A stretch of 63,508 bases of DNA, counting the filler. It is 6 parts of 6 records of this genome, joined end to end, with 100 filler letters (N's around TTAATTAATTAA, not from the genome) between each part and the next. Parts side by side here need not be neighbours in the genome. Positions count along the whole stretch, not along the records: positions 45,767 to 57,978 come from SRR31156797_17693; 5 more parts are not named here. One strand, 5' to 3'. The notes beneath the pieces are model-generated. The model ran no database searches and was not told the origin of the DNA. It saw nothing but the letters and a program-made list of their open reading frames with translations. Position 1 is the first letter of the stretch. Every line of letters begins with the position of its first letter. The translations under genes and the position numbers were made by a program. Positions 39,006-56,953 of this stretch are shown one piece after another.

Positions 39006-39211
39006 CTCCGCATCACAATCCGAATATTGTTAACAGCACCCACGATAGAACAAGCGCCTACCACAGAGTAACAGCCCACTCCCAAAAAAAACAGGAGAGA
39101 CGTGAAAATTTAACTATGCAAACTGTGCATAGTATGCTAAAAAGAATTTAATAGATGCACACATTGATGATCTTCCTGTGACACTCCATCACAATCAATG
39201 GCGTATTGAAT

Positions 39212-40005: not shown

Positions 40006-42900
40006 ATGAGGCACTTCGTGAAACTGAGTAACAAAATTGCAATAATGGGTGCTTGCAGCGTTCTTTTAACAGCTACAGCTCTCGCTCTTTTAGCAGTATG
40101 GCAAAGTAATGAATATAATGCACTGGCACAAAAGGAAGTCAATGAACTCATCGAGAGCGACCTAAATCATATAACCCAGGGCGTTTATAATCTTGTGCGC
40201 ACTGAAAATGAAGCTGTCCAGCAGCAGATAAATAACAATCTAAAGGTTGCTCGCTATCTTCTTGAAGATGCAGGAGGAATAGAACAAGGAAAAGAAGATG
40301 TAAGTTGGACTGCAATCAATCAGTTCACCCATGAATCAAAACAGGTCAGCTTGCCTCAATTGCTTGTTAATGATCAATGGCTGCAAAAAAACAAGTCTTT
40401 TAACAAAAGAACTCCTATTGTTGACGATGTCAGCGACTTAGTTGGAGCAACGGCAACTATATTCCAACGAATAAACGAGCGCGGAGATATGTTGCGGGTT
40501 GCCACCAATGTGCAGACAGCGACACACGAACGAGCAATCAGTACATATATCCCAGCTGTCAACCCCAACGGTTCTAACAATCCCGTGGTCACTGCTATTC
40601 TTCACGGAAAAACATACCATGGGCGAGCTTATGTCGTGAACGATTGGTATCTAACCACCTACGAACCAATCCGCGATGATTTCGGAGACTTAATAGGGAT
40701 GCTATATGTTGGCGTTAAACAACAAACAGTTGCAGCCCGTATCCGTAGTGCAATTCTTCAAACATCTGTTGGTGAAACAGGGTACGTTTATGTCATAAGT
40801 GGTCGAGGTGCAGACCGTGGCAGGTATATCATTTCCCAAAAAGGGGAACGTGATGGGGAAAATATTTGGCCAATTCGCGACCATGATGATCGACCAATTA
40901 TTCAAAATATTATAAACAAAGCAACCGAACTACAGCCTGGTAAAATGGCAAGTATTCGCTATCGTTGGCAAAATCCAGGTGAACTGCTACCTCGCTGGAA
41001 GATTGCTCGACTTACCTACTACGCTCCTTGGGATTGGGTAATCGGAACAAGTGTCTACGAAGATGAAGTACAAAGCTATAGTACCCAATTAACTACGGGG
41101 CGGATACGAATGATTAGATCCATGTGTATAGCTGGATCTTTTATTGCGGTGCTTATCGCCTTGATTGCCATGTATGCCGTGTGGGTAATTTTGCACCCTG
41201 TTAGAGACATGACAACTATTGCCCAAAAAATAATTAATGGTGACCACACCCAGAGAGTCGAGGTGAAGTCCCAGGATGAAATCGGAATTTTGGCACAAAC
41301 CTTCAATCAAATGTCCAAAGAGCTTCATCAAGCTATAGGGAACCTGAGAGCAAGCGAAGAAAAATATCGAAATATTTTTGAGTATGCCCTGGAGGGCCTT
41401 TTTCAAAGCACTCCTGAAGGACGTTTTGTCAGTGCCAACCCTGCGGCAGTCAGTATTTTAGGATATGACTCATCTGAAACTTTGATCGAAGAAATTACAG
41501 ATATTCGGAATCAATTTTATGTTAATCCTCATGATCGAGACATGCTGCTTGATTCAATATCAAGCAAACAGGAAATTTCCAGTTTTGAAGTGCAGTGCTA
41601 TCGAAGGGGCGGTCAGAAAATATGGGTGGCTATAAGTGCACGCATGCCTCTGAATGTCGGCAAACAAAAACAAGTAATTTACGGATTCATTCGAGATATC
41701 ACAGGCCAGAAACAAGCCGAAGCTGAACGTATATATCTCGAGTCGCGCTTGACTCAATCACAAAAGATGGAAGCTATAGGAACCCTGGCGGGCGGGATAG
41801 CCCATGATTTCAACAACATACTACAACCTATATTGAGTTACAACGAGTTGCTCAAAAAAGAATTGGAGGGCAATGATCCCTGTGAAAAATATGTGGATCG
41901 CATAAATATTGCGGCGTTAAGGGCAAAAGATTTAGTAGGACAGATTCTTGCCTTCAGTCGTCAATCTTCTCAACAGTCTACGCCACCCGTACACCTGAAA
42001 TCAGCTCTCAATGATATTATAAAACTATGTAAAGCAACGCTTCCTTCTTCTATCAAAATTATCGAAAAAACCCAGCACGATTGCTCAGCTGTTTCGGTTA
42101 CGCCGTCACACATACACCAGATTGGAATGAACTTGATAATTAACGCCTATCATGGAGTCGAACTAAATCAAGGACATATTTTAATCGAACTCCAGGAGGT
42201 GTTTTTAGAAACAGCCGACGTCGCCGGCACATCGCTAATCCAAGGCCGATACGCCAAACTCTCTGTGGCTGATACAGGATGCGGCATTGAGCCCTCTGTT
42301 ATTGATAAAATCTTTGATCCTTATTTCACCACCAAGGAGCAGGGGAAAGGGACAGGACTCGGCCTTTCCGTCGTCTACGGAATAGTGCAAGAAAATCATG
42401 GTGATATGAAAGTGTACAGTGAACCTGGGAAAGGGACAACGTTTACGGTTTATCTCCCCATCGCAGAAAGCAGGGTTGATAAAACAGATATAAACCAACC
42501 ACCCATAAATTTCCCTCGTGGCAATGAACACATTCTGCTCGTTGATGATGAATATCTCATTCTTGAGGCAGAACGAACACTCCTTAAGAAATTAGGCTAC
42601 CAGGTAACTACCCAGAACAGCAGCACTGAAGCCTTGAAGCTCTTCAGCTCAAACCCAGAAGAATTTGACTTGGTGATTACTGATTTAACGATGCCAGATT
42701 TGACAGGTATTCAATTGGCAGAAGAACTTTTAAAAATCCGGCCAGACTTACCTCTTATCATCTGTAGCGGGTTAAACGAGATGGACAACCAAGAACAAGC
42801 TAAATTAATTGGGGCAAAACAATTTTTAGCAAAACCAATTACCCTCTCAGAATTATCTCACCATATGAGACTTGTGTTAGATGAGTTAAATGATAAATAA
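40006..42900 (+). CDS. Hybrid sensor histidine kinase (Cache-HAMP-PAS-HisKA-HATPase-REC)
   Basis: TM, Cache motifs (ATATIFQR, GYVYVI, WDWVIG), HAMP (DEIGILA..FN), PAS, GGIAHDFNNIL, DTGCG, GKGTGLGL, LLVDDE/TDLTMP. Start moved to ATG 40006. Confidence 0.93.
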   Translation: MRHFVKLSNKIAIMGACSVLLTATALALLAVWQSNEYNALAQKEVNELIESDLNHITQGVYNLVRTENEAVQQQINNNLKVARYLLEDAGGIEQGKEDVSWTAINQFTHESKQVSLPQLLVNDQWLQKNKSFNKRTPIVDDVSDLVGATATIFQRINERGDMLRVATNVQTATHERAISTYIPAVNPNGSNNPVVTAILHGKTYHGRAYVVNDWYLTTYEPIRDDFGDLIGMLYVGVKQQTVAARIRSAILQTSVGETGYVYVISGRGADRGRYIISQKGERDGENIWPIRDHDDRPIIQNIINKATELQPGKMASIRYRWQNPGELLPRWKIARLTYYAPWDWVIGTSVYEDEVQSYSTQLTTGRIRMIRSMCIAGSFIAVLIALIAMYAVWVILHPVRDMTTIAQKIINGDHTQRVEVKSQDEIGILAQTFNQMSKELHQAIGNLRASEEKYRNIFEYALEGLFQSTPEGRFVSANPAAVSILGYDSSETLIEEITDIRNQFYVNPHDRDMLLDSISSKQEISSFEVQCYRRGGQKIWVAISARMPLNVGKQKQVIYGFIRDITGQKQAEAERIYLESRLTQSQKMEAIGTLAGGIAHDFNNILQPILSYNELLKKELEGNDPCEKYVDRINIAALRAKDLVGQILAFSRQSSQQSTPPVHLKSALNDIIKLCKATLPSSIKIIEKTQHDCSAVSVTPSHIHQIGMNLIINAYHGVELNQGHILIELQEVFLETADVAGTSLIQGRYAKLSVADTGCGIEPSVIDKIFDPYFTTKEQGKGTGLGLSVVYGIVQENHGDMKVYSEPGKGTTFTVYLPIAESRVDKTDINQPPINFPRGNEHILLVDDEYLILEAERTLLKKLGYQVTTQNSSTEALKLFSSNPEEFDLVITDLTMPDLTGIQLAEELLKIRPDLPLIICSGLNEMDNQEQAKLIGAKQFLAKPITLSELSHHMRLVLDELNDK

Positions 42901-42960
42901 TTATCATACCCAGCGAGCCTCAGAAAGTAGAGTGTTTTTTTCCTGCACGTTTTCCGGCTA

Positions 42961-43909
42961 TCAGCTTTTAATGACTCTATTGATGAGGTATTCAATTTTC
43001 TGTGGGGGTATTTGGCTGCCACCTTTTCTCGGGGATCCACCAATGGTATCACTGCCCCCCCATCGATCAGTTGAATTAGACGTCCCCTCAACTTTGTTCA
43101 GAAGATCGTATATTTTTTCGATCGGAAAATTTATAAAAGGAGACATCCTCCCAATCGAATAGTCATAGATTCCATTGCCTCTTTCCCGGACTGCAACAAA
43201 GGCACGTATACCATCATTAAAATGTTTTGTTCGGGCAGCCGCCGTACCTTCTTCTACAATTATTTTCCAGCTGGGCCCACCCCCAAGTACCTGGTAGGTG
43301 CAATTCAGGTCGATCTCCCCCCCCCTCACCGCGGTAAAGTAAACTTATCCGCTTGCAGGTACGCTCGATGACAGTTTATATTTTTTCAGCTGTCATTCCT
43401 GAACGATCCTTCGAAAATCGATAATCATCGTAGTGCTTAAAGACCCAAGCCATTTGCCTGACTATTGACTGGTTCGGGTCAACAGGGAAGGCTCCTCCCG
43501 TAGAGTCAATGAGGTCTTCACCAATAATCAATTTAACAAGATCGAGATCAAAACTGAACTGCCTAACGAGATGAGCATTGCTTAAAAGCCAGCATGACAT
43601 GCAAATATCCTGATCACAATCGTTGACATATACATGGGCAAAAGGTTTTTCATTCTGTTGGAAATTTTCAAAGAGTCCTAGGAAAATAGCAACCAAAACC
43701 TGGCCAGCTGTACTTCGTGTTGCAAGTCGATTGACGTTTTTATGATGGTCAAAATTGACGTATGGCCCTGCAGAATTAAAACAAGGGGCAGCATCGACAA
43801 AACCATCTAAAGCAATTGAGCAAGGGGGTTTTGTTGAACAAAACTGCTCCCATGTTTCTACAACACCGAACTCGACATGCAATATTATTTCTGGGGATAT
43901 ATTGACCAT
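42961..43909 (-). pseudogene. Disrupted DHH-phosphoesterase-like gene (premature TAA plus frameshift in a G9 run)
   Basis: ORF 43376-43909 (NFDHH, NDCDQD) continues past TAA as TVIERTCKRISLLYRGE. Removing one G from the G9 run (C9 at 43317-43325) joins it to ORF 42961-43329 (WGGSDTIGGSPR). Confidence 0.7.
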
Positions 43910-44113
43910 TTACAAAGTGCCACACAATGTATCTTTTTTAAAGGTAAAGGGTTATGTTTCACTATAACTATACCCACTTCTTGATTATATCAATTCTTTG
44001 AGAAAGCATGTTTAAAGTAAACTAAAAGCATTTTCTCCATATTCAGTTGCTTTGTCAGCAGCTTTAATAGTGGAAGATTCAAGTTGTCATTTAACTACCT
44101 AAAAAGGAAAAAT

Positions 44114-45220
44114 ATGGAAACAAAATACGTGAATGACAGAAAATTTTTATCTTACCTTACATTAATACTGATTTTGTTCTCACTCTGGATTTTTGGATCC
44201 TACTTACATTATTTAATTGTCGCAGCCGTCCTGGCTTTAGCGACCAGTCACATCTACGCTGCATTAATCAGCTTATTTAGCGGTGGGCCTGAGAACAATC
44301 TGTTCTTAAAAAATAAGGAGGTACTTGCATCTCTTGTACTTACATTTCTTTTCCTTATGATGATATTTGGCCCTATGTTTTATTTCGTATCTGTTACCTA
44401 TGACCAGATAACCACTTTAGATCTTGATCAAATTCGAGAAACCTTGGACCAAATGGTTGCAAAGACAACAGCATTTTTAGAAAAAATACCCTTACTACAG
44501 AAGCCCATTGCCAGGCTGCAGCAGGAAGGAGTCTCTCTTATTAGAGGACCTGCTATAGAAACAGCAATGGAAGGGGCAAAAGGTATTGTGGCTGGAGCAG
44601 GTTTTCTTATTGGACAGATAGTATGGATACTCATTTTTTATTTCCTGTTCAATGCCTATGGGAAAAAAATTCTTGGTTTTCTCGCAGAGCTCGTTCCAAT
44701 GACCTATGAGCATCAAAAATATCTTTACAAAGAATGCACAGGAACCGTATCTGTTGTTTTCTATGGCACCTTGTTCAATATGGTAGCTCAAGGACTAGCG
44801 TTTGGTTTTCTTATGGCTTTTATTGGCAATTACGATGCTGTTTACCTTGGTGTCCTGGCCGGATTTGGTTCAGTGATTCCTATTGTCGGTGCCGCCCTTG
44901 TCTACGTACCAGTTATAGCTTTGGAGCTCCTTGCCGGCAATTATATCAATGCAGCAATTATCTTGATCTTTGCCTGGGTTGTGATGGGTTTTTTTATCGA
45001 CAATATCCTTCGACTCATATTCATCGGGTCACTTAAAAAAGTATTTGGATTTGAGTATACAATGAACGAAATTCTTATCCTGCTTGCAATCCTCGCTGGA
45101 ATTGCCTCATTTGGCTTTTGGGGCATGATTATAGGACCTTCTGTCCTGGCCTTAACTTTTGCGGCGGCAAATTTATACAGTTCAGGTCTCGTTGGAACCA
45201 AGCAAAAAGGCGAGGATTAA
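44114..45220 (+). CDS. AI-2E family transporter
   Basis: Multiple TMs; QG, IPIVGAALVYVP, IDNILR, FGFWGMIIGP motifs. Start moved to ATG 44114. Confidence 0.88.
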   Translation: METKYVNDRKFLSYLTLILILFSLWIFGSYLHYLIVAAVLALATSHIYAALISLFSGGPENNLFLKNKEVLASLVLTFLFLMMIFGPMFYFVSVTYDQITTLDLDQIRETLDQMVAKTTAFLEKIPLLQKPIARLQQEGVSLIRGPAIETAMEGAKGIVAGAGFLIGQIVWILIFYFLFNAYGKKILGFLAELVPMTYEHQKYLYKECTGTVSVVFYGTLFNMVAQGLAFGFLMAFIGNYDAVYLGVLAGFGSVIPIVGAALVYVPVIALELLAGNYINAAIILIFAWVVMGFFIDNILRLIFIGSLKKVFGFEYTMNEILILLAILAGIASFGFWGMIIGPSVLALTFAAANLYSSGLVGTKQKGED

Positions 45221-45491
45221 CATTGGTCTTTCCCCATCGGGGAGGAGATGGCATTCTCAAAATTAATGATGGTAAACGAAATTTTGATGCACTGAATACA
45301 AGAGAAAAATTTGAAGAATATGACAGTGAGAGGGTACTGTTAAAAATGCACAAAAAAAGTACTTTGAATACCAAGAGTAAAAACGTCAACAACTGATCCT
45401 ACTCTATAGGAGGGCGGGTAAAGCGAATATCGGCCTAACTGTTACACCCACTTAATTATTGCAAGATCAGTCATTATAATAGCATTACGCA

Positions 45492-45644
45492 TTACTCCCA
45501 GGTGGAATAGGCTACACTCCGGGTTAACACCTTTTGTGTATAAAGCCTGGTTTCACTGAGGTAAAAGTCATCGACGAGGCGTTCATACACCTCATGGGGC
45601 TGTAACGTATTAATAACGGGGGATGCTTTCTGTATTGTAACCGC
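45492..45644 (-). pseudogene. C-terminal remnant resembling lytic transglycosylase MltC
   Basis: Manual translation IQKASPVINTLQPHEVYERLVDDFYLSETRLYTQKVLTRSVAYSTWE* resembles the MltC tail (IN.....VY..L.......ETR.Y..KV). An in-frame TAG lies immediately upstream at 45645-45647. Confidence 0.5.
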
Positions 45645-45666
45645 CTAAAGAACCCCATCTTCAACT

Positions 45667-45766
45667 NNNNNNNNNNNNNNNNNNNNNNNNNNNNNNNNNN
45701 NNNNNNNNNNTTAATTAATTAANNNNNNNNNNNNNNNNNNNNNNNNNNNNNNNNNNNNNNNNNNNN
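45667..45766. other. Artificial contig spacer
   Basis: N44-TTAATTAATTAA-N44. Confidence 0.98.
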
Positions 45767-45771
45767 TCGTG

Positions 45772-45794
45772 CCGGCTTCGCCGGACCCTTCGGG
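45772..45794. repeat. Tandem mini-hairpins at the contig edge
   Basis: CCGGC-TTC-GCCGG followed by CCC-TTC-GGG. Confidence 0.35.
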
Positions 45795-45890
45795 ATATTT
45801 TTAGTTATTCATGTTTCCCGATTGTAAAGATTCTTGTTCAGGTCTGTGTCACATTAGCAGGATTTCTAAGAGCCGTTATTTCTATACTTT

Positions 45891-47141
45891 TTAATCGAGC
45901 AATGGAACTGTCAGGCTACCCTGTGGAAGGATAACTGCATATGGTTTCTTTCCCTGAGCTTTAATCTGTTCAATCGCTCTGTCAAAGGTTTCCTGAATAT
46001 CCTGGCATGGGGCAAGTTTTGCACTTTTAATGGTCTCATCGTCAAGTTCCGATATGGCCCACATCTCTGCATAGACTCCGATCTGTGCCATCTTGGCTGC
46101 CTTGTGATATCCAAGCTTGTACCCTTCATCGATCTTGCACATGACATCCTCACAGGTATTCGCACAGGAGAGCAGGTTCAGGAAAGCATCATCTCCAACA
46201 CCGTCCCTGCATTTTGATACAAGGATAATGATTCCGTCATCTTCAAGTGCCAGCTTGCCGTTCTCGAGTGCCTTCTGGGACTGGTAGAGGTCTATATCCA
46301 TTGGGTACGGTGCAGCGGTAAGTACGATATTTCCTTTGCGGCTGCATTTTGAGCAGAACACTTCGTTTGCTCTCTCAACTGCAATATCAAAGGACTCGAA
46401 GAGGTCACCTGATACCATTGCGTAGAGGCCGTGATCTGCTGTGAGGACTGTCTGTATGGAGAACACGTTCAGGTCCTTCAGTACCTTCATTGCATCTTCC
46501 ATGTCCTCTGCAACAGGATTTCCACCGATGGCAAGGGGCTGTGCAGCATCAGAGAGTGCATGTTTGTGGTTCATCTCGATGGTCTTATACGATGCCACAC
46601 CCGGCAGGAATGCCTTTCTTCCGCCTGTATATCCTGCAAAATAGTGAGGCTCCACACTTCCAATGACGATGATGTTCCTGTACTCGTTCACCATCTTATT
46701 GAGGTACATCTCTGTGCCGTTGCTGGACACTCCCAGATACTCCATGTCCTCATCCTTACGTGCATCGTGGACGAATATCCTTTCTTTGAACTCGTCGTAT
46801 ATCTCTCCGAAGATGTATCTGAACTCATCTTCAGTTGGTCCTCTGTGTGCACCGGTGGCAACGAGGAACCTGACATCCTCCTGTTCTCTCAGGATGTCGA
46901 CCATCTCCGCAAGCACCTTTGCTGTTGGTGTAGGCCTTGTTGCATCGTTCACAAGAATGAGTATCTTATCGCTGTTCTGTACAAAATCATCAATTGATTC
47001 CGTGCCAACAGTATTCTTCAATGACTCAGTGATAATTTGAGATTCGTCCCCGACCTCAACCTGGTTGGGTGCAATGACCTCGTGTGGTATCTTCACATCA
47101 AGGTCAACGAATTCTTTTCCATAAGGGATTGGTACTTTGAT
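45891..47141 (-). CDS. larA: Nickel-pincer-dependent lactate racemase family protein (LarA homologue); probable ATC start at 47141
   Basis: DATRPTP, ATGAHR, EPHYFAGYTGGRKAFLPG, NH, DLYQSQKA motifs. The conserved N-terminal KVPIPYGK lies upstream of the ORF-track GTG at 47096. Confidence 0.9.
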   Translation of the reverse strand: MKVPIPYGKEFVDLDVKIPHEVIAPNQVEVGDESQIITESLKNTVGTESIDDFVQNSDKILILVNDATRPTPTAKVLAEMVDILREQEDVRFLVATGAHRGPTEDEFRYIFGEIYDEFKERIFVHDARKDEDMEYLGVSSNGTEMYLNKMVNEYRNIIVIGSVEPHYFAGYTGGRKAFLPGVASYKTIEMNHKHALSDAAQPLAIGGNPVAEDMEDAMKVLKDLNVFSIQTVLTADHGLYAMVSGDLFESFDIAVERANEVFCSKCSRKGNIVLTAAPYPMDIDLYQSQKALENGKLALEDDGIIILVSKCRDGVGDDAFLNLLSCANTCEDVMCKIDEGYKLGYHKAAKMAQIGVYAEMWAISELDDETIKSAKLAPCQDIQETFDRAIEQIKAQGKKPYAVILPQGSLTVPLLD

Positions 47142-47325
47142 AAAAATTCCTCCGGGATAGTATGATAGTAACTGGGTAGTTCATAAATAGGAAGCTTTAT
47201 TTAAGCATGCTGTTTCTTCATTTTTCGGGTCAATCTGATTGTAGATATTCAATGGATGCCCTCGAATTGAACCATCAGAGGCATATGATCACTCCTATTC
47301 GATAAAGGTCCTCATCTTCCACAGG

Positions 47326-48003
47326 TTATTGCATTGCTTTTTGTATTGCAGTAAGCATACCCTTGAATTTTAAATTGTAACTATCATTGTACTGTTTATC
47401 AAATTCGTCAATTCCATTTGTGTCGTTAACCATCCAGTAGAAATAGTAATGCTTACTTTCACCATCATTTGCTTTTACCATTTTAAGTACTGAATCATTT
47501 TCATATGATTCTGCGTTAAAAATATCCTTTACTTGTGAGTTAATTATTATCCGGCATTGCCCAGGATGTAGTTTGTTGCGGGAGCTTTCAGTATCAAGAT
47601 AAGCCTTTAAGTAAGCGTCACCATAGAGCATGTTTTTCCTGTTCTTATCAGTGACCAGCCTATCTTCATATGTGAAAAGACCATAAGCAATCGCAGTTGT
47701 AAGCATGAAATCTTTTTTTGCCATGTCTTGGTTGATTTCCTTCACGCATCTAAGCAATTCTCTTAATAACTCTCTCCTTTCATTATTTGTGCAGTTCTCA
47801 GAATCACCCGTATTTGGTCTACAAAATAAAATGCCACAGTCTGATACAAAAATTCCTTCAACTTGATTTGAGTTATTAGTCACACGGTACCCTGAGTTGT
47901 AAAAACAATCCAATGCTTTCCAAGCTTTATCTTGCTTCATCAACTCTTTGAATCCAGAGATATCTAAAAATGCAACAAAGGTATTACCATCAAATCTCAT
48001 CAT
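47326..48003 (-). CDS. Stand-alone class III nucleotidyl-cyclase-like protein
   Basis: FVAFLDISGFK (first metal Asp), FVSDCG (second Asp), TAIAYG, LYGDAYLKAY; no sensor or TM domain. Confidence 0.6.
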   Translation of the reverse strand: MMRFDGNTFVAFLDISGFKELMKQDKAWKALDCFYNSGYRVTNNSNQVEGIFVSDCGILFCRPNTGDSENCTNNERRELLRELLRCVKEINQDMAKKDFMLTTAIAYGLFTYEDRLVTDKNRKNMLYGDAYLKAYLDTESSRNKLHPGQCRIIINSQVKDIFNAESYENDSVLKMVKANDGESKHYYFYWMVNDTNGIDEFDKQYNDSYNLKFKGMLTAIQKAMQ

Positions 48004-48033
48004 TGTGCTTATCTCCTATATGTCCTTAGTTGT

Positions 48034-48588
48034 TCATTTCTCCTTGTGATACGAGAACAACGCCCTGTCAATTGTCCTTATATCGCATCCAGTATCAGTA
48101 ACAATGTCTTCAATAACTGATTTATATTCCCGGTATGTCTTCTTACTAATAGTGTCAGAGGTCAATAATCCAGCATTATTGAGAACTTCAGTAACCCTGA
48201 AATCAACAATTGGAAACACGTCAGGATACATGAAATGTAAAATTGTAGATGCAACAGGGATTTCAATTCCGTCTAACCAAACCAGAAGTCCCGGTTTAAG
48301 AGCATCAGGGATATCGAGAACATGAGTGATAGCTGTCTGGTATAGGTCAAATCTGTCTTTGTTGATCTTACCCTTTGCACGTGGTGATTTCCAATCAATT
48401 ATAGCAAAGAAAGTCTCTTCAGAGATTGTTTTGCTATCGTTGATTTCCATCTCAACCTTGTCAATGATGTTATTATAATCCGTTTCATCGCTCTCCTCAT
48501 ATAGAGTATCGTAATGAGGGGACCATTTTTTAATAAATTCCTTGTTGATAACTGTTTTTTTCATAGCATGAAATTCTTTCATGGACAT
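48034..48588 (-). CDS. Small HhH-GPD-superfamily DNA-glycosylase-like protein
   Basis: IIDWKSPR, HhH-like LDGIEIPVASTILHF, YPDVFPIVDFRV (Asp at the GPD position), IRTIDRALF. Confidence 0.6.
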   Translation of the reverse strand: MSMKEFHAMKKTVINKEFIKKWSPHYDTLYEESDETDYNNIIDKVEMEINDSKTISEETFFAIIDWKSPRAKGKINKDRFDLYQTAITHVLDIPDALKPGLLVWLDGIEIPVASTILHFMYPDVFPIVDFRVTEVLNNAGLLTSDTISKKTYREYKSVIEDIVTDTGCDIRTIDRALFSYHKEK

Positions 48589-48882
48589 ATATGTTTATTC
48601 ATTTTTATCAGCATGAAACCGAATGTCATCTTTAAAGGCAAAATGGATTAAAAATATGGATTCTATGAAGAGATATTGCCTCACCCCATTTATTGTCCGT
48701 CCAATAACTTCAGTTTGATGTCGCCCAATCAAAAAACTGTATACGATTTTTTAATTTTCCATGCAGATGTTGATGGTGTGGAATATGAATATTGCAGACA
48801 ATAGAACAGAAAGGTGTTTCATGCATTATTCCTTATATACTTGCAAACTGTTGTCCGACCATGTCTCTAAAAAGGTGAGTCA

Positions 48883-49509
48883 TTGATAGAACCCATACAA
48901 CTCCTGTACTTCATCGCAGCCTCGGTAGCCCTGACTCTTCTCCCGGGTCCTGATATCCTCTTCGTACTCACCCAGAGCATATCACAGGGAAAGAAGGCAG
49001 GCATGGCTACAGCATCCGGTCTGTGTACCGGCCTGCTGTTCCACACAACTGCGGCAGCATTGGGTGTGTCTGCGATATTGTACAGTTCGGCGGTGGCTTT
49101 CTCTGTCCTGAAATATGCAGGAGCCGTCTATCTTCTATATCTTGCTTACAAGGCGATCCGTGAAGAAGGAAACCTGACATCTCAGGTGTCTGTCAAAGAA
49201 AGGAACCTCTCACTCCTCTACAGAAGAGGTATCTTCATGAATATCCTGAATCCCAAGGTCTCCCTGTTCTTTCTTGCATTCCTGCCACAGTTCATCAATA
49301 CCGGTTCCGTCAGCATCCCAACGCAGATGGTCTTCCTGGGTGCCGTGTTCTTCATACAGGCAATAGTTGTCTTCTTCATAGTATCGTTCTTTGCCGGTAT
49401 GATAGGGACTAAGATCATGGAAAGGCCTGGTCTGGGTAAAAGGATTAACTGGGCGAAGGCTGGTATTTATTCTGTCATTGGTATCGAGCTTGCATTGTCG
49501 CATCAGTGA
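48883..49509 (+). CDS. LysE/RhtB family translocator
   Basis: PGPDILFV, KYAGAVYLLYLA, NILNPKVSLFFLAFLPQF. Confidence 0.93.
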   Translation: MIEPIQLLYFIAASVALTLLPGPDILFVLTQSISQGKKAGMATASGLCTGLLFHTTAAALGVSAILYSSAVAFSVLKYAGAVYLLYLAYKAIREEGNLTSQVSVKERNLSLLYRRGIFMNILNPKVSLFFLAFLPQFINTGSVSIPTQMVFLGAVFFIQAIVVFFIVSFFAGMIGTKIMERPGLGKRINWAKAGIYSVIGIELALSHQ

Positions 49510-49588
49510 GCTGTAAGGTTATTCTTTTGTATCTTTATGAAATAGTTATATAATAACAGTCAAATCATTTCCATATTGGAAGCCTTCC

Positions 49589-50758
49589 ATGTTCGAACTA
49601 AGTATTGCCCTGAGGCATATAAGCGCGCGGAAGCGTCTCACATTCTTCGCAGTGTTTGCGGTAGCTCTTGCCATAGCTGTTATCGTTGTGCTGATGTCCA
49701 TGATGACAGGGTTCACTGAGGAGCTGGTCGATTCCACGGTGGAGAATTCCCCGCATATCGTTGTGAGCTCTTCCGACCAGGATGAGGATTACGTACATTT
49801 CTATAGCTATTATTCGGAGCAGATAGCTGCAATGGATGGTGTGGAGGCGGTGTCTCCTGTATTTGTGGGGCAGGCGGCTATCAGTAACAAGGACAATGCC
49901 GAGGGTGTCAATCTTAATGGTATCGACCCTGTGGCGCAGGATGCTGTAATGCGTATCTCTGATGATATGGTCTCAGGCGACTTGTTCGCTCTGGGGAGGA
50001 GCAACAATGGTATAGTGATAGGTGATGGTCTTGCAGATGACCTGGAAGTTGTTCTGGGAGACAATGTTGATGTTATCATGCCGGGATTAAGTGAGTCCTC
50101 TTTCAAGGTGATAGGTATATTCGACACCGGCTCTTCCAGTGACGAAAGCGTTGCATATGTAAGGTTCGACCCGGCCCTTGACTTCTTTGACGAGAACGGT
50201 GTTGCGAGCAGTATCAATATAAGGGTCACAGATCCGTTCCAGGCGGATGTGATAGCAAGCTCCATCGAAAAAGATACGGACCTTGATGCCCGGAGCTGGA
50301 TCGAGGCTAACAAGGAAATACTCGACCTTCTCAACACTCAGGTCCTCATCGTGTGGATCTACTATGGTCTGATCTACATGATAGCCGGTTTTGGTATTGC
50401 CAATACGCTCTTTACAGTGGTCATGGACAAGAAAAGGGAGATCGGTATGTTGAAGGCAATGGGTGCCTCGAAGGTGAACATAACAATGATCTTCCTGATA
50501 GAATCTCTTGTCCTTGGAACAATGGGGGTGCTTCTTGGATGTTTAATGGGGTATTTCATCTCATTGGCACTGGCATCCTATGAGATCGATCTTCCCAGTG
50601 AGATGTATTTTGGTCTGACAACCCTTCCGCTCAAGGCTGACATCATGAACTATGCATACGCAGTGATCTTTTCATTTTTTATCAATGTAATTGCAGGGGT
50701 TTATCCTGCAAGAAGAGCGGCTGCCCTTGATCCGGTTGAAGCTATTGAAAGTGAATGA
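49589..50758 (+). CDS. ABC transporter permease, MacB/LolE (FtsX) family
   Basis: IALRHI, large extracytoplasmic domain, REIGMLKAMGA, YPARRAAALDPVEAI. Confidence 0.9.
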   Translation: MFELSIALRHISARKRLTFFAVFAVALAIAVIVVLMSMMTGFTEELVDSTVENSPHIVVSSSDQDEDYVHFYSYYSEQIAAMDGVEAVSPVFVGQAAISNKDNAEGVNLNGIDPVAQDAVMRISDDMVSGDLFALGRSNNGIVIGDGLADDLEVVLGDNVDVIMPGLSESSFKVIGIFDTGSSSDESVAYVRFDPALDFFDENGVASSINIRVTDPFQADVIASSIEKDTDLDARSWIEANKEILDLLNTQVLIVWIYYGLIYMIAGFGIANTLFTVVMDKKREIGMLKAMGASKVNITMIFLIESLVLGTMGVLLGCLMGYFISLALASYEIDLPSEMYFGLTTLPLKADIMNYAYAVIFSFFINVIAGVYPARRAAALDPVEAIESE

Positions 50759-50764
50759 GCCTTT

Positions 50765-50786
50765 GGTTTTAACTTAGTTAAAAGCC
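50765..50786. terminator. Hairpin after the permease gene
   Basis: TTTTAAC-TTA-GTTAAAA inverted repeat directly after the stop codon. Confidence 0.3.
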
Positions 50787-50964
50787 GATGTTTGTTCGTA
50801 CTCAAACGAAACGTTTATATCCTTGCGAGTCGTTAGTATGTTTGCGAACGGGTCTATTATTTAGTACCTCTCCAATACATACTAATGTCACCATACCTGT
50901 GCATTCAACCAACATTACCCGTTCGTCCCCTATGTTTTTTTATGAGGCGAACCAATTACCTTCT

Positions 50965-51393
50965 ATGAAGCTAGTGATCGAGACGCCTAAATACAGTTTT
51001 TTTAAATACCATAAAGAAGGCTCGGTCTTTGTCAAAGAATTCCTGTCTCCTGTACCTACAATTTTTAATTATGGTTTTATCGAGGGCAGCCTTGCAGCCG
51101 ATGGTATGGAAAAAGATGTGATGGTCATGGGTCCGCGCATGGCCCAGGGCACTGTTCTGGAGGTATCCCAAACCGATGGCGTTGTCAGATTTGTTGATGA
51201 CTTGCTGGAGGATAATAAAGAGATAGTCTATCTTGGCGGATACTTCTCCAGATCGTTATTCTATTTCTATTTCCATCTATATGCGACGTTTAAGGTCATG
51301 TACTATTTGATTCTAAAGGGCAGGATGAGTTATTGCAGATTTCAGGGGATATCCTGGTATAAGGGTGAACCTGGAAAGCAAAAAGAGAACTAA
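50965..51393 (+). CDS. Divergent family I inorganic pyrophosphatase-like protein
   Basis: VIETPK..FFKY, NYGFIEGSLAADGMEKDVMV, FVDD..EDNK. Start set at ATG 50965 (50932 possible). Confidence 0.7.
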   Translation: MKLVIETPKYSFFKYHKEGSVFVKEFLSPVPTIFNYGFIEGSLAADGMEKDVMVMGPRMAQGTVLEVSQTDGVVRFVDDLLEDNKEIVYLGGYFSRSLFYFYFHLYATFKVMYYLILKGRMSYCRFQGISWYKGEPGKQKEN

Positions 51394-51418
51394 TAGTTAA
51401 GAGAAGCAAGTTATGTTC

Positions 51419-52576
51419 TTACCTTGCGGATATAGCTTCTACAGGGTCAAGACTTGCTGCTCTCTGCGCAGGGTAGATTCCTGCCAGAAGATTTAGCAGG
51501 AAAACAATTGTGATTATTGTCACCACATCTTTTGTTCTGACAACCACAGGTATAACTTCCAATCCATAAACACCTTCAGGAAGCGGATAACTTCCGATGG
51601 ATAATGCCAGTGCAATACCTGCAGCTGTTCCTAAAACAGCTCCTGCAAGTCCCAGTAATCCACTTTCAACAAGGAAAATAAATCTGATATTGGCTTTTGT
51701 TGCACCCATTGCCATTAACATTCCAATTTCTTTCACTTTTCCCATGACTACCATGTTCAGCGTACTTACAACACCAAAAGATGCTATGAGGAGAATAAAT
51801 CCAAGTGTTACATTGTTAGATACGGTCTCAATGGCAATGGTTCTCAGTATCTCGGGTTTGTTCACTGTCCATCCGTCAGCATTATAGCCATTATCCTCAA
51901 TTATCTGTGCAATTTCTCTGTCCCGGTTGAAATCATCAATACGCAGGGAAATTCCGTTTATGACATCATCGGTGTCATAAAAATCCTGTGCAGTTTCCAG
52001 TGAAGTGTATGCAAGTGTTTCATCCAGTGCTGTTCCGGTGTCGTAGATAGCTACAACCTTCAGGGAAACCGGGTTTGCATTGGGAAATGAGACCTCTACA
52101 TTGTCTCCAAGTTCAAGTTCCATGTCCTCTGCAAAACTATCGCCTATAATGATGCTTTTGTCAGAATACGTCAGGCCATTGTAGTCACCTGCTATGACAT
52201 CCTTGCTGGTGTGGGCAACAGCATCTTCCCTGGAAGGTACTATGCCTTTAAGGGCGGCATTTTTTGTATTGTCCTTGAATTTGAATGATGCTTCTCCAAC
52301 AAGATATGGTGAGGAAGCTACAACGCCGTCAATATCATTTATGCTGTCAACTATGTTTTTGTAGAGGTATATGTAGTCGTCTCCGTCCTGGGGTGAAACT
52401 ACTACATGGGGCAGGTTATCAACGGTTTTACTGTAAAGTTCCTGGGTGAATCCTGCCATAAAAGACTGTGATACCATGAGTATCATGACTGCTATCCCAA
52501 TGGCTGCCACTGAAAGAATTGTCTGTCTTTTCCTTGCTTTTATATGTCTAAATGCAATGAACAGTTCGTAGCGCAT
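51419..52576 (-). CDS. ABC transporter permease, MacB/LolE family
   Basis: IAFRHI, KEIGMLMAMGA, YPAQRAASLDPVEAI; paralogue of 49589-50758. Confidence 0.9.
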   Translation of the reverse strand: MRYELFIAFRHIKARKRQTILSVAAIGIAVMILMVSQSFMAGFTQELYSKTVDNLPHVVVSPQDGDDYIYLYKNIVDSINDIDGVVASSPYLVGEASFKFKDNTKNAALKGIVPSREDAVAHTSKDVIAGDYNGLTYSDKSIIIGDSFAEDMELELGDNVEVSFPNANPVSLKVVAIYDTGTALDETLAYTSLETAQDFYDTDDVINGISLRIDDFNRDREIAQIIEDNGYNADGWTVNKPEILRTIAIETVSNNVTLGFILLIASFGVVSTLNMVVMGKVKEIGMLMAMGATKANIRFIFLVESGLLGLAGAVLGTAAGIALALSIGSYPLPEGVYGLEVIPVVVRTKDVVTIITIVFLLNLLAGIYPAQRAASLDPVEAISAR

Positions 52577-52609
52577 CGGTCACACCTTTTAGACCTTTCA
52601 CTTCCAGTG

Positions 52610-53713
52610 TCATCCCTGTCTGGATATCATCATGGCAGCAGTTCCCACAATAAGAAATGTGCTCAGGAACAAAAATCCGGGAGATTCTTCTGATTCCTGT
52701 TTGTCTGTAGTGTTTGTCTGCTCTGCTGAGGGTTCATAGTCAGACTCAATTATCCTTTCCTCAAGATCCAGAATATCGCCGTCATTGCCAATGACTTCAA
52801 TTATAAGTTCATAGACTCCAGTGGTGAGGCGTTCTTCCCATATTGTTTCTACAGTCTCATCGTCTCCGTTAAGAAGCACAGGAGATTTAATTGTGACGGA
52901 CTCGATAATGTCTCCACTATCCTGTTCTGAAACTGTGAATCTTACAGACCCTTCAAAAGGAACCTGTGATGTGCCGTCGATGGTGGCACTGGCACCAATT
53001 TCGTCTTCGTAGCTGTCACTGATGAAAACATCATCCATTGCCGTGAAGCCTTTGGTAAGGGCAATATAATTAACATCCGGGGAGTAAAGTTTGACCTTCA
53101 CCCTGCTGCTGTATTTTTTGTTATTCTCAAGCAGCACATTCCAGTCTTTGCTCACTTCCATGGGCAAGGTGGATGCGGATATTTTCTTCTCGGTTCCGGA
53201 ATAGATAACATCTGAGCCATCTATGATCATGTATTCAACATCTACCAGTACAGCTTCCAGTGGTGTTATCATTACGCTGAACCCCTGTGAATTTGGTACA
53301 AGGTCATCGACTGTAACTCTTGGTATGGTTTGCCTTCCGTTGACAAAACTATATGTGCTTTCATAGATGATGCAGTCACCTGTGGAAATACTGCTTTCAA
53401 CTATGTATTTCCCATCACTTTTATCATCAGTGTCCCATTCGAAAGCTTTGATTAGGTCGGAGCCGGGTTTTATGCTGTCAATGGTGAATGTCCTGCTGTC
53501 AAGTGTCGCACCTGAATGTTCCAGCGTTACCTGGAGTTCAAGTCCGCTTACCTGTTCCGGACTGCTTAATGTCAAATCGCATGTTTCAAGATCGGAATAG
53601 ATGTTCACAATACTTATATCATAGTTTCCTGGATCACAATCTGCTGCAAAAGAAATACCTGTAAGACCAATTATCAGCATGAGGGTTGTCAGGGACAGAA
53701 AGGCTGTTTTCAT
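52610..53713 (-). CDS. Secreted surface protein with PGF-CTERM-like archaeosortase signal
   Basis: Signal peptide; acidic beta-rich body; C-terminal ESPGF followed by a TM helix. Confidence 0.7.
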   Translation of the reverse strand: MKTAFLSLTTLMLIIGLTGISFAADCDPGNYDISIVNIYSDLETCDLTLSSPEQVSGLELQVTLEHSGATLDSRTFTIDSIKPGSDLIKAFEWDTDDKSDGKYIVESSISTGDCIIYESTYSFVNGRQTIPRVTVDDLVPNSQGFSVMITPLEAVLVDVEYMIIDGSDVIYSGTEKKISASTLPMEVSKDWNVLLENNKKYSSRVKVKLYSPDVNYIALTKGFTAMDDVFISDSYEDEIGASATIDGTSQVPFEGSVRFTVSEQDSGDIIESVTIKSPVLLNGDDETVETIWEERLTTGVYELIIEVIGNDGDILDLEERIIESDYEPSAEQTNTTDKQESEESPGFLFLSTFLIVGTAAMMISRQG

Positions 53714-53791
53714 ATAATGGCTCCTGTATCTAAATAAAAATCTTTTTGATACTATTTATACCAATCTATGAATTCGATTACTGCAGATGAA

Positions 53792-54979: not shown

Positions 54980-55662
54980 TCTATAACCTCCCCATCCTGT
55001 ATTCTGATGGTGGTATTGGAGTACTCTTCCAGTTTCGGATCGTGTGTAACCACGATAACAGTTGTTCCGGCTGCGTTGAGCTCCTTCAGCAATTCCATTA
55101 TATTCTGTCCGGTTTTTGTGTCAAGGTTTCCTGTAGGCTCATCTGCTAGCAGGATGGGTGGATTGTTTGCCAGCGCTCTTGCAATTGCAACTCTCTGCTG
55201 CTGTCCTCCTGACATTTCGTTGGGTTTATGTTCTGCAAACTCAAGTGGAAGGTCTGCTTTCTTCAGGACATTAAGGGCTTGCTTTCTTCTTTTTACGGCT
55301 GATGCACCATTGAATATCATGGGTATTTCAACATTCTCAATGGCTGTGAGGGTTGGTATGAGATTGAATTGCTGGAAAATAAAACCAATGTTATTTCTGC
55401 GAATGGCAGTGAGTCCGTCGTCATCAAGTTTTGAAAGGTCTGTGTTGTTGACCTTAACCACTCCTGATGTAGGAAGGTCAAGACAGCCTATCATATTCAA
55501 AAGTGTGCTTTTCCCGGACCCTGAAGATCCCATAATTGTTACAAAATCTCCTTCTTCAATGGAAAAGCTAACTCCGTTAAGTGCATATATCTTGTTCTGT
55601 CCAAGCGTATATATGCGTTTTACATTTTGTAGTTCTACGATGGGATGTTGCGAACGTGGCAT
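54976..55662 (-). CDS. ABC transporter ATP-binding protein (LolD/MacB type)
   Basis: GSSGSGKST, MSGGQQQRVAIARAL, ADEPTGNLD, VTHD. Confidence 0.95.
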   Translation of the reverse strand: MPRSQHPIVELQNVKRIYTLGQNKIYALNGVSFSIEEGDFVTIMGSSGSGKSTLLNMIGCLDLPTSGVVKVNNTDLSKLDDDGLTAIRRNNIGFIFQQFNLIPTLTAIENVEIPMIFNGASAVKRRKQALNVLKKADLPLEFAEHKPNEMSGGQQQRVAIARALANNPPILLADEPTGNLDTKTGQNIMELLKELNAAGTTVIVVTHDPKLEEYSNTTIRIQDGEVIE

Positions 55663-55673
55663 ATAAGCACCAT

Positions 55674-56936: not shown

Positions 56937-56953
56937 TTTTCCCTCTGCTGCGA

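What the first reader, a model, noticed from the sequence alone, without database searches (positions are those of the whole stretch)
47326..48588. AT-rich two-gene islet in a methanogen: HhH glycosylase-like gene plus stand-alone nucleotidyl-cyclase-like gene (candidate defence pair)
Seen: two co-oriented genes 30 nt apart, placed between larA and lysE. A sampled 60-nt line in the islet is 33% GC (47401-47460) against 48% in larA (46441-46500). The first gene has a helix-hairpin-helix-like motif and the GPD-position Asp, with Pro where bifunctional glycosylases carry the lyase Lys. The second keeps both metal-binding Asp motifs of class III cyclases, with no sensor or TM domain. Established: cyclase-fold enzymes make immune signals (Pycsar PycC), and DNA glycosylases can restrict phages with modified bases (e.g. 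Brig1). Inference: a horizontally acquired module coupling modified or damaged base recognition to nucleotide signalling, or two independent defence genes at an insertion hotspot. I know of no described system with this pairing. No effector gene is visible.
Basis: partly seen in the sequence, partly recalled or inferred. Interest (0 to 1): 0.72.

Follow-up and report, generated by a model that had tools for sequence, protein, structure and literature searches.

The report
Two unrelated accessory genes, not a pair
A 1.6-kb piece of foreign DNA in a methanogen-type contig carries a DNA-glycosylase-like gene and a small cyclase-like gene that sit side by side only here, so they are best read as two separate accessory (possibly antiviral) genes and not as one new system.

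Summary
Two minus-strand ORFs (184 aa, 48034-48588; 225 aa, 47326-48003) lie 30 nt apart between larA and lysE, at 35.5% GC against 48-49% in the flanks. Fourteen related genomes have larA and lysE almost abutting, so window 47204-48848 is an insertion.

Gene 1 is an Ogg2-like helix-hairpin-helix glycosylase that keeps the catalytic Asp but has Pro at the lyase Lys. Gene 2 is a stand-alone class III cyclase fold (Z 15.5) with both metal Asp.

The proposed coupling is not supported. The partner is missing beside the cyclase-like gene in 0 of 66 loci and beside the glycosylase-like gene in 0 of 81 loci. Among 284 Methanosarcinales genomes, 25 hold one family, 7 the other and none both. Neither family has a conserved neighbour.

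The glycosylase resembles the recently described stand-alone antiviral "Dag" HhH glycosylases. The cyclase-like protein belongs to a rare family with no fusions over 394 aa and no Pfam, NCBIfam or PADLOC model. It often sits among defence genes (24 of 65 neighbours hit PADLOC). This family is the more interesting remainder. Function is inferred for both genes, not shown.

The parts
47204..48848 (.). Inserted segment (1,645 bp, 35.5% GC). It replaces about 25-37 bp found at the empty site of the closest relatives.
   Evidence: BLASTN of the window against relatives G035 and G115: the flanks match up to window 47203/47214 and again from 48848/48849, and the relatives have only 36 and 25 bp between them. 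Junction sequences were read. No target-site duplication, terminal repeat, integrase or tRNA was found; the best flanking repeat is 15 nt with 1 mismatch, about what chance gives by my rough estimate.
48034..48588 (-). Stand-alone HhH-superfamily, Ogg2-like DNA glycosylase homologue (184 aa). It has Pro111 at the lyase-Lys position. Asp129, Asp174, Trp66, Lys67, Arg131 and Arg171 are conserved.
   Evidence: Model pLDDT 93.1. VIA-align: Tm1821 Ogg2 Z 10.8 over 164 residues, followed by 16 further HhH glycosylases at Z 5.3-7.7. Foldseek top hits are Ogg2 entries 3knt, 3n0u and 3fhg, but none reaches E<=1e-3. Profile against PDB: 9o00 E 8.8e-6, with Lys->Pro111 and Asp->Asp129. Conservation in 120 distinct family members: P111 106 (Lys in 1), D129 118, D174 120, W66 120, K67 119.
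48004..48033 (-). 30-nt spacer with a GGAG ribosome-binding-like motif 9 nt before the second ATG. Co-transcription is plausible but not shown.
   Evidence: Sequence read. No RNA run holds the stretch.
47326..48003 (-). Stand-alone class III cyclase-homology-fold protein (225 aa). It has both metal-binding Asp (D14, D55) and family-invariant K123, G128, R151 and W190.
   Evidence: Model pLDDT 90.8. Foldseek PDB: CyaC 1wc1 E 2.9e-8, with 186 hits at E<=1e-3. VIA-align: guanylate cyclase 3et6 Z 15.5, Rv1264 14.7, CyaB 14.5, Pycsar cyclases 12.3-12.5, GGDEF about 10, Cmr2 9.6. Conservation in 128 sequences: D14 117 of 118 ungapped, D55 127, K123 122, R151 118.
45891..47096 (-). larA (lactate racemase family), the conserved left flank.
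   Evidence: Pfam Lar_N 2.6e-54 and LarA_C 1.1e-13. 81-88% DNA identity to the relatives laid; 66-88% over all listed matches.
48883..49509 (+). lysE-family exporter, the conserved right flank.
   Evidence: Pfam LysE 2e-32. 66-85% DNA identity to relatives.

Best explanation
Window 47204-48848 is a horizontally acquired 1.65-kb islet. It carries two unrelated genes that each move and work on their own. They are neighbours by accident of insertion, probably share a transcript here, and do not form a two-component system (about 0.8).

Gene 1 is a Lys-less relative of Ogg2-type helix-hairpin-helix DNA glycosylases. With the catalytic Asp kept and Pro at the lyase Lys, it should flip out and cut a base without nicking the strand, that is, act as a monofunctional glycosylase (inferred). 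Its most likely role is that of the stand-alone 'Dag' HhH glycosylases, which excise modified bases from invading virus DNA (about 0.45). The alternative is an accessory repair glycosylase.

Gene 2 is a minimal class III cyclase-fold enzyme. Both metal-binding Asp are under strong conservation, so it most likely binds an NTP with two metals and makes a cyclic or otherwise altered nucleotide (inferred). It has no sensor domain, no fusion and no fixed partner. Its relatives often sit in defence islands, so a self-contained role in conflict with viruses is the best guess (about 0.4). That role could be a nucleotide signal read by a host-wide receptor, or NTP consumption.

The confidence given below is for the whole statement. 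The core claim (foreign DNA, folds as stated, genes independent) stands at about 0.8.
For: Insertion:
- 14 related genomes have the larA and lysE matches 25-254 bp apart, and 5 more have other content there. None of the listed matches puts the islet at this spot.
- GC and GC3 are low.
- Contiguity is confirmed by an independent assembly.

Independence:
- 0 of 66 cyclase-family loci have the HhH gene, while the same HMM found the window's own copy at 3.4e-82.
- 0 of 81 HhH loci have the cyclase gene.
- 25, 7 and 0 of 284 Methanosarcinales genomes have HhH, cyclase and both.
- Five close archaeal HhH copies (G044, G007, G197, G274, G017) and two archaeal cyclase copies (G005, G247) have no partner in the fetched 7-13 kb.
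- No neighbour family is shared beyond sibling groups of 6 loci or fewer, by BLASTP and by phmmer.
- The best homologues are unequally distant: 77% identity for HhH against 58% for the cyclase.

Folds and residues.

Stand-alone nature of the cyclase family:
- No relative of 395-2000 aa was found.
- The 150 best of 590 clusters are 111-304 aa long.

Defence context:
- 24 of 65 selected co-oriented neighbours of the cyclase family hit PADLOC at E<=1e-5. Hits include PD-Lambda-5 A+B, PD-T4-1/-3/-7, Old/AriA, dGTPase, type I R-M and SIR2-TPR. Pfam adds PIN, HEPN, RES, Mrr, HNH, an integrase and IS91.
- In relative G005 the gene lies beside a STAND-TPR protein and Cas1.
- For the HhH family, 13 of 64 selected neighbours hit PADLOC.

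Precedent: the Dag1/Dag2 families are unannotated, stand-alone HhH glycosylases in AT-rich mobile DNA that block phages with 7-deazaguanine bases. Dag1 needs K118, D184 and W188 (preprint 10.1101/2025.10.29.685425, sections 5, 7 and 8 read). The window family has the same Asp plus aromatic-at-+4 pattern: D174 in 120 of 120, and F or W at 178 in 114 of 120.
Against: - The two genes are co-oriented, 30 nt apart with a ribosome-binding-like motif, and came in on one 1.6-kb segment. That is what an operon looks like.
- The contig of the closest cyclase homologue (P0001, 58%) and those of the closest metagenomic HhH homologues (P0121-P0124, 69-77%) could not be inspected. The metagenome scan kept the best 80 of 428 relatives, all at 47% identity or less.
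- There is no experimental or expression evidence, and no RNA run holds the stretch.
- Neither protein hits any PADLOC model.
- HhH-family neighbourhoods are mixed with plain housekeeping genes such as SecA, PPDK, thiolase, trigger factor and ThrRS.
- The neighbour sets sent to Pfam and PADLOC were subsets I picked (co-oriented, mostly 100 aa or more), with no matched background control. A few hits are generic (UvrB, Lhr, MoxR, SecA).
- Dag1 needs a Lys that this family lacks at the HhH position, so the chemistry cannot be simply copied.
- The canonical cyclase Asn/Arg pair appears to be absent: positions 132 and 136 are hydrophobic in the family (the motif alignment was made by eye). The product may therefore not be a cyclic nucleotide.
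Confidence: 0.65

Rival explanations
1. The two genes form one new two-gene defence system. The glycosylase senses or creates a lesion in modified viral DNA and activates the cyclase, which makes a nucleotide alarm signal read by an effector encoded elsewhere.
For: The genes are co-oriented, 30 nt apart with a GGAG before the second start, and were acquired together in one AT-rich segment. Both folds have antiviral precedents: the Dag glycosylases and the Pycsar/Pucsar cyclases (Z 12.3-12.5 to solved Pycsar cyclases; Pucsar seen as a search listing only).
Against: The pairing is seen nowhere else: 0 of 66 loci, 0 of 81 loci, and 0 of 284 genomes with both. Each family lives alone with ever-changing neighbours. 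No effector gene is present. The cyclase-like protein has no extra domain that could receive a signal.
Confidence: 0.07
2. Neither gene is antiviral. Gene 1 is an accessory base-excision-repair glycosylase for oxidised or alkylated bases. Gene 2 is an ordinary small cAMP/cGMP-type signalling enzyme. Both are simply dispensable cargo of gene flow.
For: The HhH protein's nearest solved relatives are repair enzymes (Ogg2, EndoIII, MagIII, MutY). One homologue is named 'thermostable 8-oxoguanine DNA glycosylase' by its source. Many HhH-family neighbours are housekeeping genes, and the gene follows PPDK in two archaeal or metagenomic loci. 51 of 64 HhH neighbours and 41 of 65 cyclase neighbours hit no PADLOC model.
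Against: Both families are patchy: 25 and 7 of 284 genomes of one order, with several copies carrying stops. This copy is AT-rich and inserted. The family-wide loss of the Ogg2 Lys (Lys in 1 of 120) argues against plain 8-oxoG glycosylase/lyase function. The cyclase family clusters with complete defence systems far more often than I would expect for a housekeeping signalling enzyme, though no control was run. It also lacks any regulatory domain.
Confidence: 0.2
3. The islet is inert. It is the decaying remnant of a larger mobile element, and its two ORFs are no longer functional.
For: No mobility gene, repeat or att site is left. Several relatives carry pseudogenised copies of both families: stops in G274, G007, G017, G056, G011, G001 and G159.
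Against: Both ORFs are full length and keep every family-invariant residue checked. Both give confident models (pLDDT 90.8 and 93.1).
Confidence: 0.05

Closest known systems
Ogg2 family of archaeal/bacterial 8-oxoguanine DNA glycosylase/AP lyases (MjOgg 3knt, SsOgg 3fhg, Tm1821 3n0u, 9o00)
   Same: Same two-lobed HhH fold and similar size (about 200 aa). The HhH hairpin, the catalytic Asp (Asp129) and the C-terminal Asp-x-x-x-aromatic motif all align.
   Different: The lyase/nucleophile Lys is Pro in 106 of 120 family members and Lys in only 1. NCBIfam PRK01229 scores 15.2 bits against a cut-off of 183. The family has extra invariant Trp66-Lys67 and Arg131/Arg171. Distribution is patchy and accessory rather than core.
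Dag1/Dag2 and further 'Dag' defence glycosylases (Getz et al., bioRxiv 10.1101/2025.10.29.685425)
   Same: Small, stand-alone, previously unannotated HhH-superfamily glycosylases in AT-rich, horizontally moving DNA. The active site has two Asp and an aromatic residue four positions after the second Asp: Dag1 D132, D184, W188, against D129, D174, F178 here.
   Different: Dag1 is reported as bifunctional and needs K118. This family has no Lys at the HhH position. The Dags were found in Vibrio integrons, while this copy is in a methanogen-type archaeal contig. No direct sequence or structure comparison was possible because the Dag sequences are in closed supplements. Antiviral activity is untested here.
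Class III nucleotidyl cyclases (CyaB 3r5g, Rv1625c, CyaC 1wc1, guanylate cyclase 3et6)
   Same: Same catalytic-domain fold over residues 1-196 (Z 13.5-15.5 for these four entries). Both metal-binding Asp are present.
   Different: No Pfam PF00211 hit even at E<=1. The canonical Asn and Arg of the G-x-x-V-N-x-A-x-R stretch appear replaced by hydrophobic residues (alignment by eye). There is no regulatory domain. The family-specific invariants K123, R151 and an H-x-Y-x-Y-W motif have unknown roles.
Pycsar (PycC cyclase plus effector) and Pucsar
   Same: A cyclase-fold enzyme found among defence genes. Solved Pycsar cyclases match at Z 12.3-12.5.
   Different: Pycsar and Pucsar are two-gene systems with a cNMP-sensing effector next to the cyclase. 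Here no neighbour family is conserved, and PADLOC's models, Pycsar's if that release holds them, do not hit the protein.
Panoptes (mCpol minimal Cas10-like polymerase plus membrane effector)
   Same: A minimal palm-domain nucleotide synthase without a sensor domain, in defence loci.
   Different: The fold is closer to class III cyclases (Z 15.5) than to the Cas10 palm (Cmr2 Z 9.6). No adjacent 2TM or CARF-TM effector is present. Panoptes papers were seen only as search listings and abstract starts.

Membership tests
HhH(-GPD) DNA glycosylase superfamily | Two-lobed all-helical fold with a helix-hairpin-helix DNA-binding motif | tested here: met
   VIA-align Z 10.8 to Tm1821, with 16 of the next 18 rows HhH glycosylases. 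Foldseek top 50 are all HhH glycosylases, though E is 3.7e-3 at best. Gly107 of the hairpin is invariant in 120 of 120.
HhH(-GPD) DNA glycosylase superfamily | Catalytic Asp following the HhH motif | tested here: met
   The profile alignment puts the Ogg2 catalytic Asp on Asp129; the residue that is Asn in the otherwise identical chain 9o01 (read as an active-site variant) aligns there. Asp129 is present in 118 of 120.
Ogg2 (bifunctional 8-oxoG glycosylase/AP lyase; NCBIfam PRK01229) | Lyase/nucleophile Lys in the HhH motif | tested here: not met
   It aligns to Pro111. Across the family: Pro 106, Ala 11, Lys 1 of 120.
Ogg2 (bifunctional 8-oxoG glycosylase/AP lyase; NCBIfam PRK01229) | Score above the curated family cut-off | tested here: not met
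   15.2 bits against a cut-off of 183.
Pfam PF21790 (putative OGG-like) | Score above the gathering threshold | tested here: not met
   15.7 bits against 27, covering the C-terminal 54 residues only. Two longer relatives score 24.3 and 21.2 bits, also below the threshold.
Dag defence glycosylases | Stand-alone HhH-fold protein in AT-rich or mobile DNA | tested here: met
   Single-domain 184-aa protein inside a 1.65-kb AT-rich insertion. The family has no conserved partner.
Dag defence glycosylases | Lys-Asp catalytic pair plus stacking Trp (Dag1 K118, D184, W188) | tested here: inconclusive
   D174 and F/W178 fit the Asp/aromatic spacing. The HhH Lys is absent, and invariant Lys67 might or might not substitute.
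Dag defence glycosylases | Protection against phages with 7-deazaguanine-modified DNA | not testable with these tools
   Needs infection assays.
Class III nucleotidyl cyclases (PF00211) | Cyclase-homology-domain fold | tested here: met
   Z 15.5, 14.7 and 14.5 over 146-168 residues. Foldseek E 2.9e-8.
Class III nucleotidyl cyclases (PF00211) | Two metal-binding Asp | tested here: met
   D14 and D55 align to the invariant Asp of 8 PF00211 domains, in a weak hhalign match. They are conserved in 117 of 118 and 127 of 128.
Class III nucleotidyl cyclases (PF00211) | Transition-state Asn and Arg (N-x-x-x-R after the conserved Gly) | tested here: inconclusive
   hhalign did not align the second half. 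By eye from Gly128, the two positions are Leu/Val/Ile and Leu/Ile/Phe in the family. No residue-level structural superposition was available.
Class III nucleotidyl cyclases (PF00211) | Sequence membership by the Pfam model | tested here: not met
   No PF00211 hit at E<=1. One homologue is called 'Guanylate cyclase domain-containing protein' by UniRef.
Class III nucleotidyl cyclases (PF00211) | Head-to-tail dimer forming the active site | not tested
   No complex prediction could be run.
Pycsar / Pucsar | Adjacent effector gene with a cyclic-nucleotide-binding domain | tested here: not met
   There is no conserved neighbour among 66 loci. In the window the only neighbour is the HhH gene.
Panoptes (mCpol) | Cas10-type palm plus adjacent membrane effector | tested here: not met
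   No conserved adjacent effector. The fold ranks with class III cyclases well above the Cas10 subunit Cmr2, Z 15.5 against 9.6.

The most novel reading that the evidence does not exclude
The 225-aa protein represents a rare, undescribed family of minimal class III cyclase-fold enzymes (590 clusters among 1.84 billion representatives). In this reading the family works as a self-contained, single-gene antiviral function, with no dedicated sensor domain or effector. It could work by converting or exhausting a nucleotide pool, or by making a signal read by a host-wide receptor. In the same reading, its neighbour would be the first Lys-less, Dag-like antiviral glycosylase seen in a methanogen lineage.
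Probability: 0.25. Interest if true: 0.7.

Novelty: new variant of a known kind. Interest (0 to 1): 0.35.

Why it matters
The proposed new system, glycosylase coupled to cyclase, does not survive comparison, and knowing that saves follow-up effort.

Two smaller things remain. First, a compact cyclase-fold family with conserved metal ligands has no Pfam, NCBIfam or PADLOC model, no fusions and no partner, yet repeatedly sits beside complete defence systems. If it acts alone, it would extend nucleotide-based immunity to a one-gene format. Second, an Ogg2-like glycosylase family has systematically lost the lyase Lys. It behaves like an accessory gene in archaea and bacteria, which fits the new idea that HhH glycosylases are widely re-used against viruses with modified DNA. 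Archaeal viruses with 7-deazaguanine DNA are known (PMC6884629, passages read). Both ideas can be tested with simple expression and enzyme assays.

Tried and rejected
The queue was full each time, so no job ran and there is no result.
- The window's own genome is not held. Relatives were reached through the genome of locus L012 instead.
- Expression: no RNA holder is listed. Only the probable source DNA run holds the stretch.
- Mobility signatures: no target-site duplication, terminal inverted repeat, integrase or tRNA at the junctions. The best flanking direct repeat (15 nt, 1 mismatch, 47211 and 48592) is about what chance gives by my rough estimate.
- Cyclase profile against PDB by sequence: nothing relevant.
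- Longer, fused relatives of the cyclase-like protein: none at 395-2000 aa. This is weak evidence, as the tool itself says.
- Viral collections: no cyclase-family relative in IMG/VR by the patterns used. BFVD gave only generic cyclase-domain proteins.
- For the HhH family, 1 substantial and 4 marginal viral loci. PHROGs phrog_24538 (unknown function) matches the C-terminal half at 3.6e-11.
- A hidden shared domain among the variable neighbours of the cyclase family (a possible effector sensor): none by phmmer among 99 immediate neighbours.
- Earlier findings of this scan: three look-ups, nothing returned.
- Literature searches for a described stand-alone cyclase defence gene found none (terms given there). 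I saw listings and abstract starts only, so this is not proof of absence.
- Assembly artefact or contamination as the source of the islet is rejected, because an independent 40.7-kb contig spans it.
Full report
WHAT IS THERE. On the minus strand lie two ORFs. One encodes 184 aa (48588 down to 48034) and the other 225 aa (48003 down to 47326). They are separated by 30 nt that contain GGAG 9 nt before the second ATG. They sit between larA (45891-47096, minus; Lar_N 2.6e-54) and lysE (48883-49509, plus; 2e-32).

The segment 47204-48848 is 35.5% GC, against 47.8% in larA, 49.0% in lysE and 43.3% in the window. GC3 is 0.34-0.37 against 0.53-0.57.

The finding lies in the piece 45767-57978. Logan's assembly of the one run that holds the stretch, probably the source, covers 45800-50800 in a single 40.7-kb contig with no differences.

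IT IS AN INSERTION. No genome is held for the window. I therefore reached relatives through the genome of locus L012, titled Methanosarcina hadiensis in its record. Of 121 genomes sampled from that family, 92 match the 5.8-kb query.

In the closest ones, G035 and G115 (81-88% identity), the larA side matches up to window 47203/47214 and the lysE side from 48848/48849. Only 36 and 25 bp lie between them in the relatives. Fourteen genomes in all have the two flanks 25-254 bp apart.

Five genomes have something else at the spot. G056 and G093 have an 803- or 790-aa secreted, membrane-anchored-looking protein. G099, G086 and G119 have 840, 550 and 480 bp of non-matching DNA. The spot is therefore variable, but in the relatives it does not carry defence genes. 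No repeat, duplication, integrase or tRNA marks the junctions.

GENE 1. Sequence libraries give only hints. These are PF21790 'OGG-like' (E 0.012, 15.7 bits against a cut-off of 27), NCBIfam PRK01229 (15.2 bits against 183) and no PADLOC hit.

The model is confident (pLDDT 93.1). VIA-align gives Z 10.8 over 164 residues to the Ogg2 enzyme Tm1821. The next rows are endonuclease III, MagIII, OGG1, MIG, AGOG, MutY and AlkA at Z 5-7.7. Foldseek ranks Ogg2 entries first, but with no E below 1e-3.

A profile of 44 family members hits Ogg2-type glycosylase/lyase 9o00 at E 8.8e-6. The alignment puts the Ogg2 Lys on Pro111 and the Ogg2 Asp on Asp129. Two deposited chains that differ from 9o00 at exactly these two positions (probably active-site variants) support this.

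In 120 distinct relatives, Pro111 occurs 106 times and Lys once. Asp129 is present in 118, Asp174 in 120, Trp66 in 120, Lys67 in 119, Arg131 in 120 and Arg171 in 120. Residue 178 is Phe or Trp in 114.

From general knowledge of the superfamily (recalled, not tested), an HhH glycosylase with the Asp but without the Lys is expected to be monofunctional.

GENE 2. No library hit is significant. The model is confident (pLDDT 90.8). Foldseek gives class III cyclases at E 2.9e-8, with 186 hits at E<=1e-3. VIA-align gives the following:
- guanylate cyclase 3et6, Z 15.5
- Rv1264, Z 14.7
- CyaB, Z 14.5
- the three solved Pycsar cyclases, Z 12.3-12.5
- GGDEF domains, Z about 10
- Cmr2, Z 9.6

I took eight genuine PF00211 domains from two genomes. 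hhalign then aligned residues 8-108 only (E 0.0079, probability 5%), with D14 and D55 on the two invariant metal Asp.

In 128 sequences, D14 is kept in 117 of 118 ungapped, D55 in 127, K123 in 122, G128 in 125, R151 in 118 and W190 in 123. Counting from Gly128, the positions that hold the canonical Asn and Arg are hydrophobic. That register was set by eye and is an inference.

The family is small: 590 clusters at E<=1e-3 among 1.84 billion representatives, the best 150 being 111-304 aa long. No relatives of 395 aa or more were found, and none in IMG/VR by the patterns used.

IS IT A PAIR? No.
- In 66 species-representative genome loci with the cyclase-like gene, an HMM of the HhH family found nothing. 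It found the window's own copy at 3.4e-82. Fifty-four of these loci have at least 700 bp on both sides.
- In 80 metagenome loci plus one archaeal genome locus with the HhH gene, the cyclase HMM found nothing. Thirty-four of these have at least 700 bp on both sides and 35 on one side.
- In 284 genomes of the order, 25 have the HhH family, 7 the cyclase-like family and none both. Several copies carry stop codons.
- The closest archaeal copies sit in unrelated places. The HhH gene lies between TrkA-type genes and HflX in G044, after PPDK in G197, and beside a PD-(D/E)XK nuclease in G007. The cyclase-like gene lies beside a STAND-TPR protein and Cas1 in G005.
- Neither family has a conserved neighbour by BLASTP clustering or phmmer. 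The largest group is six sibling Bacteroidota loci.

CONTEXT.
- Of 65 co-oriented neighbours of the cyclase family that I selected, 24 hit PADLOC at E<=1e-5. The hits include complete PD-Lambda-5 (A+B), PD-T4-1, -3 and -7, Old/AriA, dGTPase, type I R-M, PDC candidates and SIR2-TPR. Pfam adds PIN, HEPN, RES, Mrr, HNH, CHAT, a reverse transcriptase, an integrase and IS91.
- For the HhH family, 13 of 64 selected neighbours hit PADLOC. These include type I R-M, Old/GajA-like, TIR, a DpdF-like helicase and PDC-S32. Many others are housekeeping genes.
- These are hand-picked subsets without a matched control, and a few hits are generic helicases or ATPases.
- Some HhH relatives are fused to DUF7225, and one to a PHP domain.

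LITERATURE. A 2025 preprint (10.1101/2025.10.29.685425; outline, passages and sections 5, 7 and 8 read) describes Dag1, Dag2 and 17 further families. They are stand-alone, unannotated HhH-fold glycosylases from Vibrio integrons that block phages with 7-deazaguanine DNA. They lie in AT-rich DNA, often near mobile or defence genes. Dag1 needs K118, D184 and W188.

The window protein matches that description in size, fold, context and the Asp/aromatic pattern, but not in the Lys.

The same preprint calls Brig1 a UDG-family enzyme. Archaeal viruses with 7-deazaguanine DNA exist, for example HVTV-1 (PMC6884629, passages).

I found no description of a stand-alone cyclase-fold defence gene (listings only). 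Panoptes and Pucsar were seen as listings and abstract starts only.

VERDICT. The segment is foreign DNA. The two genes are independent passengers, not a coupled system.

The glycosylase is a new, Lys-less member of the growing class of accessory and possibly antiviral HhH glycosylases. The cyclase-like protein belongs to an undescribed, rare, stand-alone variant of the class III cyclase fold with a defence-island habit. That family is the part worth a bench test.

Noticed in passing
window 8399-8498, 23198-23297, 28557-28656, 45667-45766, 57979-58078: Pairs of 44-N runs: the window is six contig pieces joined by spacers (1-8398, 8499-23197, 23298-28556, 28657-45666, 45767-57978, 58079-63508). 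Gene order across these points means nothing.
   Followed up: partly
window 1-8398: This first piece is 24-30% GC and encodes bacterial-type genes: a PGBA_N plasminogen-binding-like protein, AhpC/TSA, bifunctional riboflavin kinase/FAD synthetase, TlyA-like FtsJ+S4 and a GspD-type secretin. It looks like a low-GC bacterium and not the archaeon of the other pieces, so the assembly or bin seems mixed.
   Followed up: partly
L083 2236-4647 (G056) and L084 2080-4452 (G093): At the same larA-lysE spot two relatives carry an 803- or 790-aa protein with an N-terminal hydrophobic segment, a Ser/Thr/Asp-rich body and a C-terminal membrane anchor. It looks like a surface protein. This shows the spot is a general variable site.
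   Followed up: partly
L018, L021, L026, L031, L032, L057 (Bacteroidota): In six loci the cyclase-like gene overlaps or abuts (-4 to +8 nt) the first gene of a PD-Lambda-5 A+B system (PADLOC 7.7e-160 and 3.7e-126 for L018). In L018 it is preceded by a HEPN_Swt1 / PDC-M34B gene.
   Followed up: partly
L097 3725-6534 and L189 (G197) 5676-8741: In two loci the HhH gene directly follows, or overlaps the end of, a PEP synthase/PPDK gene. This is a recurrent housekeeping context that argues against a purely defence-island life for this family.
   Followed up: no
G274:C34, G007:C1, G017:C110, G056:C1, G011:C1 (HhH); G001:C1:400004-400657, G159:C186 (cyclase-like): Several Methanosarcinales copies of both families contain in-frame stops or are split. 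This fits the gain-and-decay dynamics of accessory genes.
   Followed up: no
L168 5095-6525; P0140, P0142, P0147, P0149-P0151; L127: Fused forms of the HhH family exist. One has an N-terminal PHP phosphoesterase domain, and several have a C-terminal DUF7225 (about 100 aa, unknown function).
   Followed up: partly
L091 3-1775: One HhH-family gene lies two genes downstream of (a TPR gene between them) a helicase that scores best as DpdF (2.2e-44), a component of the Dpd 7-deazaguanine DNA modification/restriction system. This is a single case, but it is thematically close to the Dag idea.
   Followed up: no
P0084, P0101, P0117 (331-346 aa): A few cyclase-family members carry a C-terminal extension of about 110 aa, Cys-containing and with no Pfam hit. 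These are the only extended forms seen.
   Followed up: no
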